Positions 34,534 through 40,063 of a DNA stretch of 64,000 nt are shown here, piece by piece. Origin of the DNA: Bacillota bacterium (GTDB lineage Bacteria; Bacillota; DTU025); NCBI GenBank assembly GCA_050951805.1, contig JBMNJT010000004.1:64001-128000 (forward strand), read 5' to 3'. The notes beneath the pieces were generated by a model. That model ran no database searches. It saw only the letters and a list, made by a program, of their open reading frames with translations, and was not told the origin of the DNA. The first letter of the stretch is position 1. Each line of letters starts with the position of its first letter. Both the position numbers and the translations under genes were made by a program.

Positions 34534-34609
34534 GGGCCACTAGCTCAGGCGGTAGAGCACCGGACTTTTAATCCGGGTGTCGCGGGTTCGAGTCCCGCGT
34601 GGCTCACCA
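34534..34609 (+). tRNA. tRNA-Lys (UUU)
   Basis: 76 nt; GGGCCAC/GTGGCTC acceptor stem, anticodon loop CTTTTAA, GGTTCGA T loop, encoded CCA. Confidence 0.98.
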
Positions 34610-34640
34610 TTTTTATACCCTTTTAGCTGAGAAGATGATA

Positions 34641-34676
34641 AGTGCCACTGGGTTTGGTTCCCAGTGGCACTCCGTT
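34641..34676 (+). terminator. tRNA terminator hairpin (intron target site)
   Basis: AGTGCCACTGGG-TTTGGTT-CCCAGTGGCACT perfect 12-bp stem, then CCGTT and the intron 5' end. Confidence 0.85.
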
Positions 34677-35318
34677 GTTCGCCCGGCATGGTTGTTGAGC
34701 CGATGGACTGAAAGAAGTCCTGTCACCCAACCAGCGGGAAGACAACCTCAAGGCAAGGGCGTCGCCGAAAGCGGCGGGGTCTGAAGGAAGCTTTAAGGGG
34801 GAACACGGAACGTAGCGAAAGCGAACCGAAGTTGGCCTGTCAGGTGGGTAACCTTGCGAAGTATGGGAAAGCCCGAAAGCTGGATAACCTGGGGGGTTGG
34901 GACGGACGGGTTCATGTTCAGGCAGACAAACTTAACCGGGGAAGCCCTGCATCATCCAGATAGCTGGTAAGCCCAAACAAGCGGAGACGCAAGGATGGGA
35001 ATATGTGGTGTGGGGTGGCAGATGAGTCCGTAGTAGTTATGAACCCTCAGCCCATGAAAGCTGGCAATAGACCGGAGGATAAAACTGAGGGGACAGCGGC
35101 CAGGAGTCGCTGGGCTGCATTGGCCAAAAGCCTATGCAGTTGCGAAGGGACGAAGGCAAACCAAAGCGTGCAACCTAGTTACAGGCAAGCATGGGAGAGA
35201 GATAACAGAGGCTGAAATGCCGATGGGAACGGGGGAGCCGGGGGCGACGAGTCTGCTGGTCCCTGCGCCCGCTCAGCAGAGTATCAAAGCCTGACAGGGT
35301 AGATTGCCTTTGAGCTAG
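34677..35318 (+). mobile_element. Group II intron copy 1, 5' fragment (ribozyme domains I-III, truncated at the ORF start)
   Basis: Starts GTTCGCCCGGCATGG; nearly identical to 37073-37699; no RT or domain V follows. Confidence 0.9.
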
Positions 35319-35488
35319 AGGCGCCTCGCAAGACCCTGGGAAGAGACCGAAGCCATGCAGGTGAGAAGCGAAGAAAGCGCTGTAGGATGAAGGGCCTCAT
35401 CAAATACGAGGTCGGCGTCTTGCGTTTCTTCAATGAAACGAAGCAACGAAGGTTTGCCAGTGGACACACTTGTTGAGCTGGCGATTCA

Positions 35489-35875
35489 TTACTCTAGCGA
35501 AGCTATGTGATTCTTGATAGCGATGCAGAAAGCCTTGGCGTTCTCCAACACTGAGTGGACGTCTGCATCCTCGATAGTGCGGACCGCACCGTAGTCGGCG
35601 AGATTGCGAAGATCAAAGGCCTCAAGGAAGTGCCGGTGAAGGGAGGCATCTAGGATCCCGGTCTTAACAAAGTGCTGCCCGAAAGCTGCAATTACGGCGG
35701 AGTGCTTGGAAAACGAAAGATCTCGGCTGAGCAGAAGTGCTTCTGCCGAGTAGAACATGGCATAGTATGCCCGGCCAACGGCGAATTCGGGAAACCCATG
35801 CGTGAATAGGTGCTCCGCTGCGGCAAGGCTGCGATCCGCCTTCACGAGCAGATCTGTTACATCCGGTGAGCTCAC
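35489..35875 (-). CDS. HEPN domain protein (toxin of MNT-HEPN pair)
   Basis: GRAYYAMFY, SKHSAVIAAFG, RNLADY. Confidence 0.9.
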   Translation of the reverse strand: MSSPDVTDLLVKADRSLAAAEHLFTHGFPEFAVGRAYYAMFYSAEALLLSRDLSFSKHSAVIAAFGQHFVKTGILDASLHRHFLEAFDLRNLADYGAVRTIEDADVHSVLENAKAFCIAIKNHIASLE

Positions 35876-36228
35876 AGCCTCACTCCCTCTTTGCGGACAT
35901 TGAGCAGAAAAGGCGTCTTGCCCGAACGGTACTCGTCGATTCCCATGGGGATCAAGGAGATTACCGTGTCGTATCGGAGGGACAGGTCAGCGATGGCCTC
36001 AGAATAGTGTCGTCTCTCACTAAGACCGCTACAGTCCTGAAGTAGAAGCACTAGATCGATGTCTGAACCCTGGACCGATGTGCCTTGGGCATGAGAACCG
36101 AAAAGCACAAGACCCAGGAAACGGTCGCCGTAGATCCCACGCAGCGTGGCTTCAATTTCGCGCACGATACCTTGGAGGCGAGGTGAGAGAGTGAATGACG
36201 GCCGAATAGCCTCAGTATCAGTGTTCAT
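35872..36228 (-). CDS. Minimal nucleotidyltransferase (MNT antitoxin)
   Basis: LFGSHAQG....SDIDL motif; 4-bp overlap with HEPN gene; AGGAG RBS. Confidence 0.9.
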   Translation of the reverse strand: MNTDTEAIRPSFTLSPRLQGIVREIEATLRGIYGDRFLGLVLFGSHAQGTSVQGSDIDLVLLLQDCSGLSERRHYSEAIADLSLRYDTVISLIPMGIDEYRSGKTPFLLNVRKEGVRL

Positions 36229-36812
36229 CTGGACCGCTCCTACATGTGTTGTCGGCACCATTATACCAGACTCATAGACACAAATGGTTCCACCTATCTG
36301 TCGCACCTGGGTACAGCATCGGGTCACGTCTTGTCATGTGGAGTACTGTGGGAGGTTGGAAGCTGGAGGGATTTCTGAATATGGGCCCAAATCCAATGGT
36401 TTCGTCGTATGTTCCCACTCCTGGGGCGAGCGGCGCGGCTGAGCTGGGGTTTGCTGAATTGTTCAGGATGGTCGTCCCACCGGCCCTGATAGGCTTGGCT
36501 GTCGCCCGCTGGCGGCTGCGTACCTACTATTTCACTCTGCTTGTGGGGGGCACTTTGACCTTGGGTCGGCAGGGGATGAGGGATGAATTCTGGGCGGGGG
36601 TGCAGCAGATGATACTCGTGGAGGTATTATGATTGGGGGACGATTTCGTAGATCCGTAGAGGAAATGGATATGTAATGTAGTATGTATTATATTTAAGGC
36701 AGTGGAGCCACATTTATGTCAAATGCTTACGCAATGCTGCTTTGGTTTTGCTGTTGTGTAGGCACCATATTGCTTGCAATTTGGAAGGAGTGCTGTATAC
36801 GCAAAGTCCTAC

Positions 36813-36980
36813 CGCGGACCTCAAAGGATGCCGATTTCTCCGGGAGGTTCGCGCAAGCCATCTAGCTTGGGTAACAGTGTTTGTTACTCGGACACAAGCC
36901 TAAGAGGACTAGCTTTTCAGAGAGGTTCGCGGAACCAGGCTCAAAAGCCCAGGTAAATCGGCGGATTTTTTGGATACTGT
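36813..36980 (+). promoter_or_regulatory. Type I-C-like CRISPR leader
   Basis: CGCGGACCTC(36813) and GAGGTTCGCG(36844) inverted pair plus a second GAGGTTCGCG(36922), a layout I recognise from type I-C leaders; abuts the first repeat. Confidence 0.7.
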
Positions 36981-37072
36981 GTCGCACCCCATGCGGGTGC
37001 GTGGATTGAAACCCAAACCTGTGGAATACAAGCGTGGAAGGCCCAAGTCGCACCCCATGCGGGTGCGTGGAT
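36981..37072 (+). CRISPR. Orphan type I-C CRISPR mini-array: one full repeat, one 34-bp spacer, one intron-interrupted repeat
   Basis: GTCGCACCCCATGCGGGTGCGTGGATTGAAAC (36981-37012), spacer 37013-37046, first 26 nt of the same repeat at 37047-37072; no cas genes in the window. Confidence 0.9.
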
Positions 37073-38895
37073 GTTCGCCCGGCATGTTTGTTGAGCCGAT
37101 GGACTGAAAGAAGTCCTGTCACCCAACCAGCGGGAAGACAACCTCAAGGCAAGGGCGTCGCTGAAAGCGGCGGGGTCTGAAGGAAGCTTTAAGGGGGAAC
37201 ACGGAACGTAGCGAAAGCGAACCGAAGTTGGCCTGTCAGGTGGGTAACCTTGCGAAGTATGGGAAAGCCCGAAAGCTGGATAACCTGGGGGGTTTGACGG
37301 ACGGGTTCGTGTACAGGCAGACAAACTTAACCGGGGAAGCCCTGCATCATCCAGATAGCTGGTAAGCCCAAACAAGCGGAGACGCAAGGATGGGAATATG
37401 TGGTGTGGGGTGGCAGATGAGTCCGTAGTAGTTATGAACCCTCAGCCTATGAAAGCTGGCAACAGGCCGGAGGATAAAACTGAGGGGACAGCGGGAGTCG
37501 CTGGGCTGCATAGGCCAAAAGCCTATGCAGTTGCGAAGAAACCAAAGCGTGCAACCTAGTTACAGGCAAGCATGGGAGAGAGATAACAGAGGCTGAAATG
37601 CCGATGGGAACGGGGGAGCCGGGGGCGACGAGTCTGCTGGTCCTTGTGCCCGCTCAGCAGAGTATCAAAGTTTCGCGGGGTAGATTGCCTTAGAGCTGCA
37701 TACAGGGCCGTCAGGGCCAACAACGGGGCTTCCGGGATAGACGGTGAGACCGTGGACGCCTTCGGCGAGAACCTGGAAGCCAGGCTGGCAGAGATACCGA
37801 AGCCAGACGGAAGCAAAAGGCCGCTTGGCATACCCACCGTTGGCGACAGAGTAGTGCAGCAAGCGCTGCTCAATGTGGTTCAGCCAATCTTCGACCCCGA
37901 ATTTCATCCATCGAGCTATGGGTACCGACCCGGGCGATCCTGTCATCAAGCAGTGGCAAAGGCAGAGAGGTTCATTAATCGCTACGGTCTCAAGCACGTA
38001 GTGGACATGGACTTGTCAAAATGCTTTGACCGACTCGATCATGACCTGATCATTGAGTTTGTGAACCGCAAGGTCAGCGACGGAAGCGTACTTAAGCTGA
38101 TCCGGAAGTTCCTTGAAGCAGGAGTCATGAAAGACGGGGCCTGGGAGGAAACAACCATAGGCAATCCGCAAGGCGGAGTAATATCGCCTCTTTTTGCCAA
38201 CATCTATCTTGACTACTTTGATCAAAAGATGAAGTCAAAGGACATCAGGATAGTGAGGTACGCTGACGATATACTCATCTTTGCGCGGACAAAGCGACAG
38301 GCGGAAAAGTTCTTGGAGATAGCGTGCGAGATCCTTGAGGGCGAGTTAAAGCTCGTTGTGAACAGGGATAAAACGCACATAACCAGCGTCTATAAGGGAG
38401 TGCCCTACCTTGGGTTTGTCATATACCCCAAGAAGCTGGCGAAGTTCAAGGACGCCGTCCGCAAGCTGACTCCCCGCAATCATGGGATGAGTGTTGAGCA
38501 GATGGTGAAGCGACTCAACCGATTCCTTATTGCGAACTGCAAGACGATAGTAGCCAGCCTGATGGGGTGGATAAGGCGGCGTCTGAGGATGAAGCAGATG
38601 GGGGAGTGGAAGAGCTGGAGGGGCCTGCATAAAGCACTTCGAAGGCGAGGCTACTCAGGCGAATTCCTCAAGATATCCATGAGACGATGGAGGAACTCGG
38701 CAAGTCCTCTGGTCAACATGGCGCTTCCTCAGGCTTGGTTCAGTGAGATAGGACTGATTGGCCTCACGAAGTATGAGGTCGTTTCCTATGAAGCGAAGTG
38801 ACTAAGGTTTGCCAGGAGCCGTGCACGGGGCCCGTACGCACGGTTCTGTGAGAGGGATGACGCCAGGCTGATCACCTGGCGCCACCCTACTCGAT
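37073..38895 (+). mobile_element. Group II intron copy 2 (IIC-like), both ends present
   Basis: 5' GTTCGCCCGGCATG; domain V GAGCCGTGCACGGGGCCCGTACGCACGGTTC (38816-38846); 3' end ACCCTACTCGAT. Confidence 0.93.
37644..38801 (+). pseudogene. ltrA: Intron-encoded reverse transcriptase/maturase, no endonuclease domain, degenerate
   Basis: GIDG, IPKPDGSKRPLGIP, SYGYRPGRS, PQGGVISP, YADD present; damaged N-terminus and several conserved segments missing. Confidence 0.85.
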
Positions 38896-38924
38896 TAAGT
38901 TACCTTCAGGTTAGTTATGACCTT

Positions 38925-38965
38925 GCTGCTCCTTTGGTGAAGGCGGTCCGAAAAGGAGTGGCAAA
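38925..38965. terminator. Hairpin between convergent intron and B3/B4 gene
   Basis: TTGCTGCTCCTTT...AAAGGAGTGGCAA inverted repeat. Confidence 0.45.
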
Positions 38966-39081
38966 ACTTCAGACATTTGGCTTCATCGGGGCTATGCGCT
39001 GACTCAACTTTCGTGTTCTGACAACAGAGGCCCATAGCGAGCCTGTCTTGAGAAGCGCGAGATCCACTCTGTCCTTGCGAA

Positions 39082-39822
39082 TCAGGCCTTTTCTTGTTCG
39101 GCTGAGGCCATCAAGTCGCACGAGTTACGGTCTCGATCGAGGAAATATTGGTGCGCTGCCACACCGAAGAACTCTTCGAGTCGGCCGGCGAGTTCGGCCA
39201 TAGCCCGTTCAACAGCATCACGATTGCGGTCTGTGAACCCATCTATGGGAAAGAAGATGTTCCTTGACTCCTCTGTCACTTTTCCGCGGTCGTTCTGCCG
39301 CCATATCCATCGCCTTGTCCTTATTTCCCGTCCATCGGCATACACCAACTCTCCTGCCGGGACTTCTTCGGGCTCAGCTTCCCCGAGCGGGGTGAAGAGT
39401 TCGCCTTGGCGCGAGAATCGCACCGCTAGATCGCCGGAGATGGAGTCGAGGTCGTGCGCCCCCATTGGTAACGCGAGTTCGAGCGATACGGCGTTTACAA
39501 GGTTCACAACGGAGTTTATGTCGGGAAGATCGCTCCCTTTGACTACCCGGGATGTGAGGGCCTCAACCGAGCAGGGGAACTTGTTCGGGTTATATCCCAA
39601 CGCCCGAAATGCCTCTCGGTAGGGTACGATGTCAGGATGCTCCTTCACATTTGTCCCCGCAAACTTGGCCCTAGTTCGGCGCATAGCTTTACTGAGAAGA
39701 GCACTGATTTTCTGAGCATTGTCTGATTGGAGTTGGGTATTGTCGATGCCGTGCGCCACAACAACGCCAATGCACATAGTGGGCAATACCTCGAATACTT
39801 CAGGATCGATCAGAAATCTCAT
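39082..39822 (-). CDS. B3/B4 domain protein (PheT-like tRNA-editing domain)
   Basis: PNKFPCSVEAL..R, PDINSVVNLVNAVS, RRWIWRQ. Confidence 0.9.
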   Translation of the reverse strand: MRFLIDPEVFEVLPTMCIGVVVAHGIDNTQLQSDNAQKISALLSKAMRRTRAKFAGTNVKEHPDIVPYREAFRALGYNPNKFPCSVEALTSRVVKGSDLPDINSVVNLVNAVSLELALPMGAHDLDSISGDLAVRFSRQGELFTPLGEAEPEEVPAGELVYADGREIRTRRWIWRQNDRGKVTEESRNIFFPIDGFTDRNRDAVERAMAELAGRLEEFFGVAAHQYFLDRDRNSCDLMASAEQEKA

Positions 39823-40063
39823 GTGCCGATTCCTCCTGTGTCTGCCAGATAGGCGGTCGTAAGCATTTCAGCGGCTATGCGTTGCAATTGCCCATGCGGG
39901 GCGTTCTACTTAATGATACAGCAAATACGAGTCAAACCGCCACATACGTTTGAAGGCTCCTTCGGATTGCCCAGGCCCAATGGAATCTGGGCCTTTTCTT
40001 TGCTCAGGATCGGAGGTTAGATCTATCTGCCCAGGCCGTCATCGCGCTCAATCGAGACCAATG

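What the first reader, a model, noticed from the sequence alone, without database searches (positions are those of the whole stretch)
37047..38901. Group II intron inserted inside a CRISPR repeat, just 3' of the repeat hairpin
Seen: repeat 2 stops after 26 nt (CGCACCC-CATGC-GGGTGCG hairpin plus TGGAT) and the intron begins at 37073; after the intron end comes TAAGTT where TGAAAC is expected. Knowledge: IIC introns insert a few nt downstream of DNA stem-loops (terminators, attC). Inference: palindromic CRISPR repeats are another target class for this intron. TAAGTT is either a degenerate terminal repeat end (so the array had one spacer) or the scar of recombination or assembly collapse that removed the rest. 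The hairpin and spacer remain upstream of the intron, so the crRNA could still be processed.
Basis: partly seen in the sequence, partly recalled or inferred. Interest (0 to 1): 0.75.

Follow-up and report, generated by a model that had tools for sequence, protein, structure and literature searches.

The report
Group IIC intron splitting a CRISPR repeat
A defective copy of a hairpin-seeking mobile intron sits inside the second repeat of a leftover two-repeat CRISPR array, which suggests that CRISPR repeat hairpins can be landing sites for this class of intron.

Summary
Window 36981-37012 is a 32-nt repeat, 37013-37046 a 34-nt spacer, and 37047-37072 the first 26 nt of a second repeat. A group IIC intron (37073-38895) follows, 5 nt after the repeat's 7-bp hairpin.

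- **Repeat type:** the repeat is type I-C. A same-genus genome has the identical repeat and a homologous leader beside cas5d and csd1.
- **Orphan array:** this genome has neither cas gene, so the array is a relic.
- **Intron family:** the family has 12 5' junctions in this genome, and all lie behind hairpins.
- **This copy:** its reverse-transcriptase gene carries deletions, so it was probably moved in trans by three intact copies.
- **Assembly:** it is not a misassembly. Contigs of one public run bridge both junctions, and two other studies reach 29-30 nt across.
- **Further cases:** a decayed paralogous locus in this genome has repeat(1-26), an intron remnant, then TGAAAC. A metagenome contig shows a different IIC intron (42% identical protein) in an I-C repeat, followed by AAAC.
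- **Frequency:** the event is rare. 0 of 218 relatives' repeats are interrupted, and 0 of 400 other sampled genomes of the phylum carry the junction.

The origin of TAAGTT is unresolved. I found no published description. This is a new target type for a known mechanism.

The parts
36393..36548 (+). C-terminal fragment of an LPG_synthase_TM gene. It marks the left end of the block that is paralogous to G000:C2:15031-15552.
   Evidence: Pfam PF03706, residues 50-101 of ORF 36246-36632 match profile positions 250-302 of 302. 85% identical to C2:15031-15204. The full gene lies at C2:14257-15236.
36782..36980 (+). CRISPR leader-like region.
   Evidence: 70% identical to the leader in front of the full array at G001:C184:15785-15984. 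87% identical over 60 nt to G001:C131:5584-5643, which lies at the end of the contig carrying cas5d and csd1.
36981..37012 (+). Repeat 1: a complete 32-nt type I-C repeat with a 7-bp stem (CGCACCC/GGGTGCG) and a 5-nt loop.
   Evidence: Identical to 13 of 13 repeats of G001:C184.
37013..37046 (+). The single 34-nt spacer.
   Evidence: No protospacer found.
37047..37072 (+). Repeat 2, positions 1-26: the hairpin plus TGGAT. This is the 5' exon of the intron.
   Evidence: 100% identical to R1 positions 1-26. The junction is bridged by an X1 contig covering 36893-37117.
37073..38895 (+). Group IIC intron, 1823 nt, a deletion derivative. D1-D4 lies at 37157-37326 and D5/D6 at 38814-38895.
   Evidence: Rfam RF02001 and RF00029. 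Ends defined by 12 5' and 10 3' junctions in the genome. 97% identical to the C3 copy and 94-96% to the others.
37644..38801 (+). Damaged intron-encoded protein frame (385 aa from a TTG). It lacks the normal N-terminus and ATG, 18 aa of RT1 (YQELRSGSYEPSPVRRVE), 7 aa, and RGWINYFR of the maturase domain.
   Evidence: Comparison with the 423-aa protein of the three 2092-nt copies. It still matches RVT_1 and GIIM and TIGR04416, at 326 bits against 428 for the full protein.
38896..38901 (+). TAAGTT, the 3' flank where TGAAAC is expected. Its origin is unresolved.
   Evidence: No further repeat lies in the next 205 nt: alignment score 7 against a shuffle mean of 7.2.

Best explanation
A non-autonomous copy of a group IIC intron reverse-spliced into the second repeat of a small type I-C CRISPR array. 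It lies between repeat positions 26 and 27, in the sense orientation.

Inferred mechanism: the intron RNP read the repeat's G+C-rich stem-loop in single-stranded DNA as it reads terminator hairpins, and inserted 5 nt downstream. This copy's own reverse transcriptase/maturase is damaged, so the protein most likely came in trans from the three intact 2092-nt copies.

The array is a relic: a leader, one spacer and no I-C cas genes in the genome. The insertion therefore has no present cost to immunity.

Shown: the anatomy, the junctions, the family's hairpin rule, the I-C identity of the repeat, and the existence of other cases. Inferred: ssDNA stem-loop recognition, supply of protein in trans, and the timing.
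For: - **Intron identity:** Rfam D1-D4 and D5/D6 matches. The full-length family protein carries RT plus maturase and no endonuclease domain. Its best solved relatives are the IIC proteins GsI-IIC RT (E 8e-103) and 7uim (E 4e-87).
- **Hairpin rule:** 12 of 12 5' junctions in this genome lie 0-7 unpaired nt behind a predicted hairpin.
- **Repeat is I-C:** it is identical to the repeats of a same-genus genome, whose homologous leader lies on the contig with cas5d and csd1.
- **Orphan array:** cas5d and csd1 were not found in G000, while both were found in G001 and G035 in the same searches.
- **Damaged protein frame, shared with the C3 copy:**
- **Second locus:** C2:15523-15548 matches repeat(1-26) at 23/26. 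Intron pieces follow at 27/34, 79/94 and 15/18, then TGAAAC. It is the only one of 19 intron-end-like sites in the genome followed by TGAAAC.
- **Independent case:** metagenome contig L167 carries four I-C repeats. One is cut ...GGATTG|intron, and the intron end is followed by AAAC, a spacer and a repeat. Its protein is 42% identical to this family's.
- **Junctions in public runs:**
Against: - The 3' flank is TAAGTT, not TGAAAC (2 of 6 match). No intact split repeat is seen at this locus, and no intron-free allele was found.
- The last 3 nt before the intron (GAT) differ from the TTY seen at 9 of the 12 junctions, so exon-binding pairing looks weak here.
- The stem (7 bp) is the shortest of the 12 by my reading of the folds.
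- The block from the LPG fragment to the intron is paralogous to the C2 locus, and the paralogy ends exactly at the intron's 3' end. The junction could therefore have been inherited or moved as a block rather than made here.
- The event is rare: 0 of 218 repeats in five relatives' arrays, and 0 of 400 other genomes sampled from the phylum.
Confidence: 0.8

Rival explanations
1. One old insertion, moved as a block. The intron entered a repeat once, in the ancestral array behind the LPG synthase gene (the C2-type locus). The block of LPG 3' end, leader, R1, spacer, R2(1-26) and intron was later copied to this site. The right edge was set by the intron itself, either through recombination with another copy that sat in front of TAAGTT, or through reverse transcription of a transcript that still carried its 5' exon. 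Under this reading the window shows no independent targeting event.
For: The paralogy with C2 starts inside the LPG gene and stops exactly at the intron's 3' end; the sequences beyond are unrelated. Both loci have the same insertion point, 26|27. The repeat is 26/26 before the intron and 2/6 after it. The whole stretch 34607-40058 is non-syntenic with the sister genome.
Against: The flanks differ by 15% (LPG fragment) to 33% (leader) between C4 and C2. The window intron is 97% identical to the C3 copy and 94-96% to the other copies, whereas the C2 remnant is about 84%. The window intron therefore looks much younger than the duplication, unless gene conversion refreshed it. No reciprocal product (another hairpin, then intron, then TGAAAC) exists: 0 of 10 3' junctions.
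Confidence: 0.2
2. Assembly artefact: the assembler joined the array to the downstream gene through a collapsed multi-copy intron.
For: There are 12 or more copies at 94-97% identity in the genome. The 3' flank does not continue the repeat.
Against: X1 contigs cover 36893-37117 and 37614-39400 with 0 differences. X3 and X9 pieces from other studies reach 29-30 nt across the junctions, and in X3 the two flanks have similar depth (163 and 143). The copy has its own deletions, which distinguish it from all the others.
Confidence: 0.03
3. Not a CRISPR: the two hairpin copies are a REP-like or terminator repeat that only resembles an I-C repeat.
For: Only 1.8 repeats are present and this genome has no I-C cas genes. 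In Plesiocystis pacifica a very similar palindrome is a dispersed element with 166 copies, one of them followed by a IIC intron 5' end.
Against: The repeat is a 32/32 match to the array repeats of a same-genus genome, with 65-69 nt spacing there and a homologous leader beside cas genes. In G000 the repeat occurs only here and at the paralogous C2 locus.
Confidence: 0.03

Closest known systems
Group IIC (class C) introns that insert after intrinsic terminators, such as GsI-IIC of Geobacillus stearothermophilus and the Oceanobacillus iheyensis intron (the organism names are recalled, not from a call)
   Same: RT plus maturase protein without an endonuclease domain. The best solved relative is GsI-IIC RT. 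The 5' end GTTCGCCCGGCATG resembles the IIC type. Insertion lies a few nt behind a DNA stem-loop at 12 of 12 junctions. The 2015 review (PMC4424553, passages read) lists homing sites, terminators and attC as the three known bacterial target types.
   Different: Here the stem-loop is the palindrome of a CRISPR repeat, not a terminator, and no T-run follows it. The copy is a deletion derivative that cannot make an intact protein.
IIC-attC introns of integrons (S.ma.I2 type)
   Same: This is a precedent for a IIC lineage using a recombination-site hairpin that occurs in tandem arrays, rather than terminators (passages of PMC4424553).
   Different: attC introns are a dedicated lineage. Here a terminator-type family uses a CRISPR repeat once among 12 junctions. 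No evidence of specialisation was found.
IS elements and transposons that interrupt CRISPR arrays (general knowledge, recalled)
   Same: A mobile element interrupts an array.
   Different: A sense-oriented self-splicing intron could in principle be removed from the pre-crRNA and restore the repeat. An IS element cannot.
Reverse transcriptases associated with CRISPR-Cas (RT-Cas1, G2L1/2)
   Same: They are related to group II intron reverse transcriptases (7kft, E 8e-30).
   Different: Those are domesticated proteins without a ribozyme. This element is a complete ribozyme with D1-D6, unlinked to cas genes.

Membership tests
Group II intron, class C (IIC) | Catalytic RNA core (D1-D4 and D5/D6) | tested here: met
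   RF02001 at 50.8 bits (cut-off 32) and RF00029 at 44.2 bits (cut-off 40).
Group II intron, class C (IIC) | Intron-encoded protein with RT and maturase (X) domains but no DNA endonuclease domain | tested here: met
   The full-length family protein (423 aa) matches RVT_1, GIIM and TIGR04416 (428 bits, cut-off 300). Its top PDB matches are IIC proteins: 6ar1, 7uim, 5hhj. No tree was built.
Group II intron, class C (IIC) | Insertion a few nt downstream of a DNA stem-loop | tested here: met
   12 of 12 5' junctions, folding energy -13.8 to -27.8 kcal/mol.
Group II intron, class C (IIC) | Short EBS1/IBS1 and EBS3/IBS3 pairing, no EBS2 | not tested
   Only the exon ends were tabulated: the last 3 nt are mostly TTY, but GAT here. 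EBS1 was not located in the RNA.
Autonomous mobile intron | Intact protein reading frame in this copy | tested here: not met
   This copy has lost the ATG and N-terminus, 18 aa of RT1, 7 aa, and RGWINYFR relative to the three 2092-nt copies.
Type I-C CRISPR array | Direct repeats of about 32 nt with a palindromic core, separated by spacers of about 34 nt | tested here: met
   The array is minimal: one full repeat, one 34-nt spacer and 26 nt of a second repeat.
Type I-C CRISPR array | Repeat and leader shared with an array beside I-C signature genes (cas5d, csd1/cas8c) | tested here: met
   G001 has the identical repeat. Its leader homologue lies at the end of contig C131, which carries cas5d (189.7 bits) and csd1 (502 bits).
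Type I-C CRISPR-Cas system (functional) | I-C cas genes present in the same genome | tested here: not met
   cas5d and csd1 were not found in G000 (97% complete). The only cas1 lies at C2:142957, with an array of another repeat type about 4 kb downstream.
Type I-C CRISPR-Cas system (functional) | Transcription and processing of the crRNA | not testable with these tools
   Only contigs of one RNA run were laid, and these cannot show it.

The most novel reading that the evidence does not exclude
Palindromic type I-C CRISPR repeats are a recurrent natural landing site for group IIC introns of different lineages. Insertion is always in the sense orientation, inside the segment that encodes the crRNA 5' handle. 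The intron is therefore transcribed within the pre-crRNA and can splice out to restore the repeat, which would make it a self-splicing intron in a non-coding immune RNA. Intron copies in arrays would then also drive array breakage and carry leader and repeat pieces to new sites, as the C2/C4 paralogy that ends exactly at the intron's 3' end hints.
Probability: 0.35. Interest if true: 0.7.

Novelty: new variant of a known kind. Interest (0 to 1): 0.55.

Why it matters
Reviews list three target types for bacterial group II introns: homing sites, terminators and attC sites. A CRISPR repeat would be a fourth. It would be the first in which the host RNA is a non-coding immune transcript that needs the interrupted sequence, the crRNA handle, to work.

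This makes three questions testable. What does the IIC RNP actually read in a stem-loop? Can arrays tolerate introns through splicing? Do multi-copy introns help to break up and scatter CRISPR arrays after cas genes are lost?

The practical effect in this genome is probably nil, because the array is an orphan relic.

Tried and rejected
**Database scans**
By my own estimate that is about the number expected by chance. Of the 80 loci I could read, I saw a GTCGC...hairpin plus a IIC 5' end by eye in only 1 (L085). That hairpin proved to be a dispersed REP-like element, not a CRISPR.
- The viral contigs junction scan gave 1 hit, a chance match inside a coding region.
- The phylum sample gave a junction pattern in G000 only, of 401 genomes.
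- The metagenome scan gave 1 contig.

**Searches for related sequence**
- Protospacer for the spacer: none in viral contigs (exact match) or in phages (blastn).
- Empty site for the 3' flank: the B3_4 gene and its flank were not found in G001-G004. Only 46-47% identical orthologues turned up in two of 30 relatives, so there was no intron-free allele to compare.
- A further repeat downstream of the intron: none above shuffles.
- The window flanks have no second copy in the genome.
- G001-G004 and G035 carry only fragments of related introns at 78-91% identity. They say little about whether intact arrays resist this family.

**Read data**
- No joint 37072->38896, either spliced or intron-free, was listed in the four runs.
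- The RNA run X15 had no cover over 36404-36923.
- Contigs cannot show absence, transcription or splicing.

**Literature**
- Six full-text searches and passages of five papers gave no description of a group II intron inside a CRISPR repeat. This covers only the held library.
- PMC6082379 (the GsI-IIC paper) is not held. Supplements were not consulted.

**Not attempted**
- EBS1 was not located.
- No intron phylogeny was built.

Full report
**What is there.**
- A 32-nt repeat lies at 36981-37012. It has a 7-bp G+C-rich stem (CGCACCC/GGGTGCG), a 5-nt loop and the tail TGGATTGAAAC.
- A 34-nt spacer follows at 37013-37046.
- A perfect copy of repeat positions 1-26 lies at 37047-37072.
- GTTCGCCCGGCATG... 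follows from 37073.

Rfam finds group II intron D1-D4 at 37157-37326 and D5/D6 at 38814-38895. The same search found a second D1-D4 match at 34761-34931, behind a tRNA.

**The intron family.** The window is G000:C4:64001-128000, in a genome of 2.75 Mb in 8 contigs, 97% complete. A search of that genome with the intron gave 41 matches. I extracted 12 5' ends and 10 3' ends.
- All 5' ends begin GTTCGCCCGG and all 3' ends stop at ...CTACTCGAT, with unrelated flanks. The window intron is therefore 37073-38895, and TAAGTT is flank.
- All 12 5' flanks fold into a hairpin that ends 0-7 nt before the intron, with folding energy -13.8 to -27.8 kcal/mol.
- Three copies are 2092 nt long and encode an intact 423-aa protein.
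- That protein has RT and maturase domains and no endonuclease domain. Its best solved relatives are IIC proteins: GsI-IIC RT at E 8e-103 and 7uim at E 4e-87.
- Five copies are 865-nt forms without a reading frame.
- The window copy (1823 nt) and a copy on C3 (1850 nt) share in-frame deletions. These remove the ATG and N-terminus, 18 aa of RT1, 7 aa, and the RGWINYFR motif of the maturase.

I infer that the window copy cannot make a working protein and was moved by protein from the intact copies.

**The repeat is a type I-C CRISPR repeat, and the array is an orphan.**
- A same-genus genome (G001) has the identical 32-mer in 13 of 13 repeats of an array, preceded by a leader 70% identical to window 36782-36980.
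- Another copy of that leader lies at the end of the G001 contig that carries cas5d and csd1.
- In G000 the same two searches found nothing, although they did find the genes in G001 and G035.
- The only cas1 in G000 lies at C2:142957. An array with a different repeat starts about 4 kb downstream, at C2:147983.
- In G000 the I-C repeat occurs only here and, degenerate, at C2:15523.
- The stretch from the tRNA to about 40058 is not syntenic with G001. It also holds a HEPN/nucleotidyltransferase pair and a fragment of an LPG synthase gene.

**It is not a misassembly.**
- Contigs of public run X1 cover 36893-37117 and 37614-39400 without a difference, so both junctions are bridged.
- X1 may be the sample the genome came from.
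- In runs X3 and X9, from other studies, pieces run from the flanks 29-30 nt into the intron. X3 covers both junctions; X9 covers only the 3' junction. I would expect this of short-word contigs ending at a repeat, but it is just under the tool's 31-letter rule.
- In X3 the two flanks have similar depth (163 and 143).

**Other cases.**

The first is in the same genome. At C2, behind the full-length LPG synthase gene, lies a diverged leader (67% identical).
- Next comes GTCGCACTCCATCCAGGTGCGTGGAT, which matches repeat positions 1-26 at 23 of 26.
- Decayed pieces of the intron's reading frame follow (27/34 and 79/94), then the intron's last 18 nt (15/18).
- TGAAAC comes directly after.
- Of 19 sites in the genome that resemble the intron end, this is the only one followed by TGAAAC.
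- The same insertion point, 26|27, is thus seen with both halves of the repeat.

The second is a 2239-nt metagenome contig (L167), the only hit of a strict junction pattern in 241 million records.
- It holds four identical I-C repeats (GTCGCTCCCTGCGCGGGAGCGTGGATTGAAAC).
- One is cut after ...GGATTG by a IIC intron. The intron's end is followed by AAAC, a 34-nt spacer and the next repeat.
- The contig's two ends overlap by 60 nt, so it may hold one intron or two.
- Its RNA matches Rfam D1-D4 models. Its protein is 42% identical to this family's, so it belongs to another lineage.
- The offset differs by 2 nt and the orientation is again sense.

A third candidate, in Plesiocystis pacifica, turned out to be a dispersed REP-like palindrome with 166 copies, not a CRISPR.

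**How often it happens.** It is rare.
- One of 12 junctions in this genome is in a CRISPR repeat.
- 0 of 218 I-C repeats in five relatives' arrays are interrupted.
- 0 of 400 other genomes sampled from the phylum carry the junction pattern.
- The relatives examined lack this intron family apart from fragments. Their clean arrays therefore say little about resistance to it.

**TAAGTT.** I could not decide its origin.
- *For a degenerate terminal repeat:* the sister genome's terminal repeat also changes at its very end (...GGATTGAAGT). No further repeat follows in the window.
- *For an intron-mediated rearrangement:* identity drops from 26/26 to 2/6 exactly at the intron. The paralogy with the C2 locus also ends exactly at the intron's 3' end.
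- *Against a single old insertion carried along:* the flanks of the two loci differ by 15-33%, while the window intron is 97% identical to its nearest copy and the C2 remnant only about 84%.

I therefore favour two separate insertions at the same point, at about 60:40. No empty allele was found.

**Mechanism and consequences.**
- *Shown:* the anatomy, the hairpin rule, the class of the protein and the identity of the repeat.
- *Inferred from established IIC biology* (PMC4424553, passages read): recognition of the stem-loop in single-stranded DNA, reverse splicing a few nt downstream, and priming without an endonuclease.
- From recalled knowledge of I-C systems, Cas5d cuts at the 3' base of the stem and leaves an 11-nt handle. 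The intron therefore lies inside the handle-coding part of the next unit and spares the hairpin of the upstream crRNA.
- That matters in an array such as L167. It does not matter here, where no downstream spacer and no Cas5d exist.

**Novelty.** Six full-text searches and passages of five papers gave no report of a group II intron in a CRISPR repeat. The 2015 review names only homing sites, terminators and attC sites. The library is partial, one key paper was not held, and supplements were closed. I rate this a new variant of a known kind: a known mechanism at a new type of stem-loop, seen three times, twice in this genome.

Noticed in passing
window 34677-~35460: A second copy of the same intron, of the frameless type and truncated before D5. 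It sits 6 nt behind an 11-bp hairpin that follows a tRNA gene (34534-34606). The sister genome G001:C43 has the same tRNA and hairpin without an intron, so it is an empty site.
   Followed up: partly
window 35489-36327 (-): A HEPN domain protein and a nucleotidyltransferase with overlapping genes, which looks like a toxin-antitoxin-type pair. It lies between the two intron copies.
   Followed up: no
G000:C7:28591-31547 and G000:C4:16330-17245: Stacked introns. On C7 an 865-nt mini copy sits directly behind a full copy, 7 nt after its D6 hairpin. On C4 a mini copy sits between nt 4 and 5 of a diverged intron, so that intron's own first four bases (GTTC) serve as the exon end.
   Followed up: partly
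L085 / G409 (Plesiocystis pacifica SIR-1): A 27-nt palindrome that looks like a type I-C repeat (GTCGC...GCGTGGAT) is a dispersed element with 166 copies on both strands, many of them single. One copy is followed by a IIC intron 5' end.
   Followed up: partly
L167 (strand -), the spacer directly after intron|AAAC; window 38896-38901: The spacer that follows the intron and AAAC in the metagenome contig begins TAAGTT, the same hexamer as the window's 3' flank. This is probably coincidence, but I have no explanation.
   Followed up: no
G000:C2:1-180 and C2:147983-152839: Two arrays with other repeat types. One is cut by the contig start. The other starts about 4 kb downstream of the genome's only cas1, at C2:142957.
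   Followed up: no
window 37697->38757 in RNA run X15: An RNA-library contig joins 37697 to 38757, which corresponds to the frameless mini form of the intron. It shows that this form is present in that library, not that it is spliced.
   Followed up: no
G000:C2:15721-15750: Directly after the TGAAAC of the C2 relic comes a stretch weakly like another repeat (...CCATCGAGGAGGCGTAGATT). Its alignment score is 9, against a mean of 7.2 for shuffles of the window's own downstream flank.
   Followed up: no
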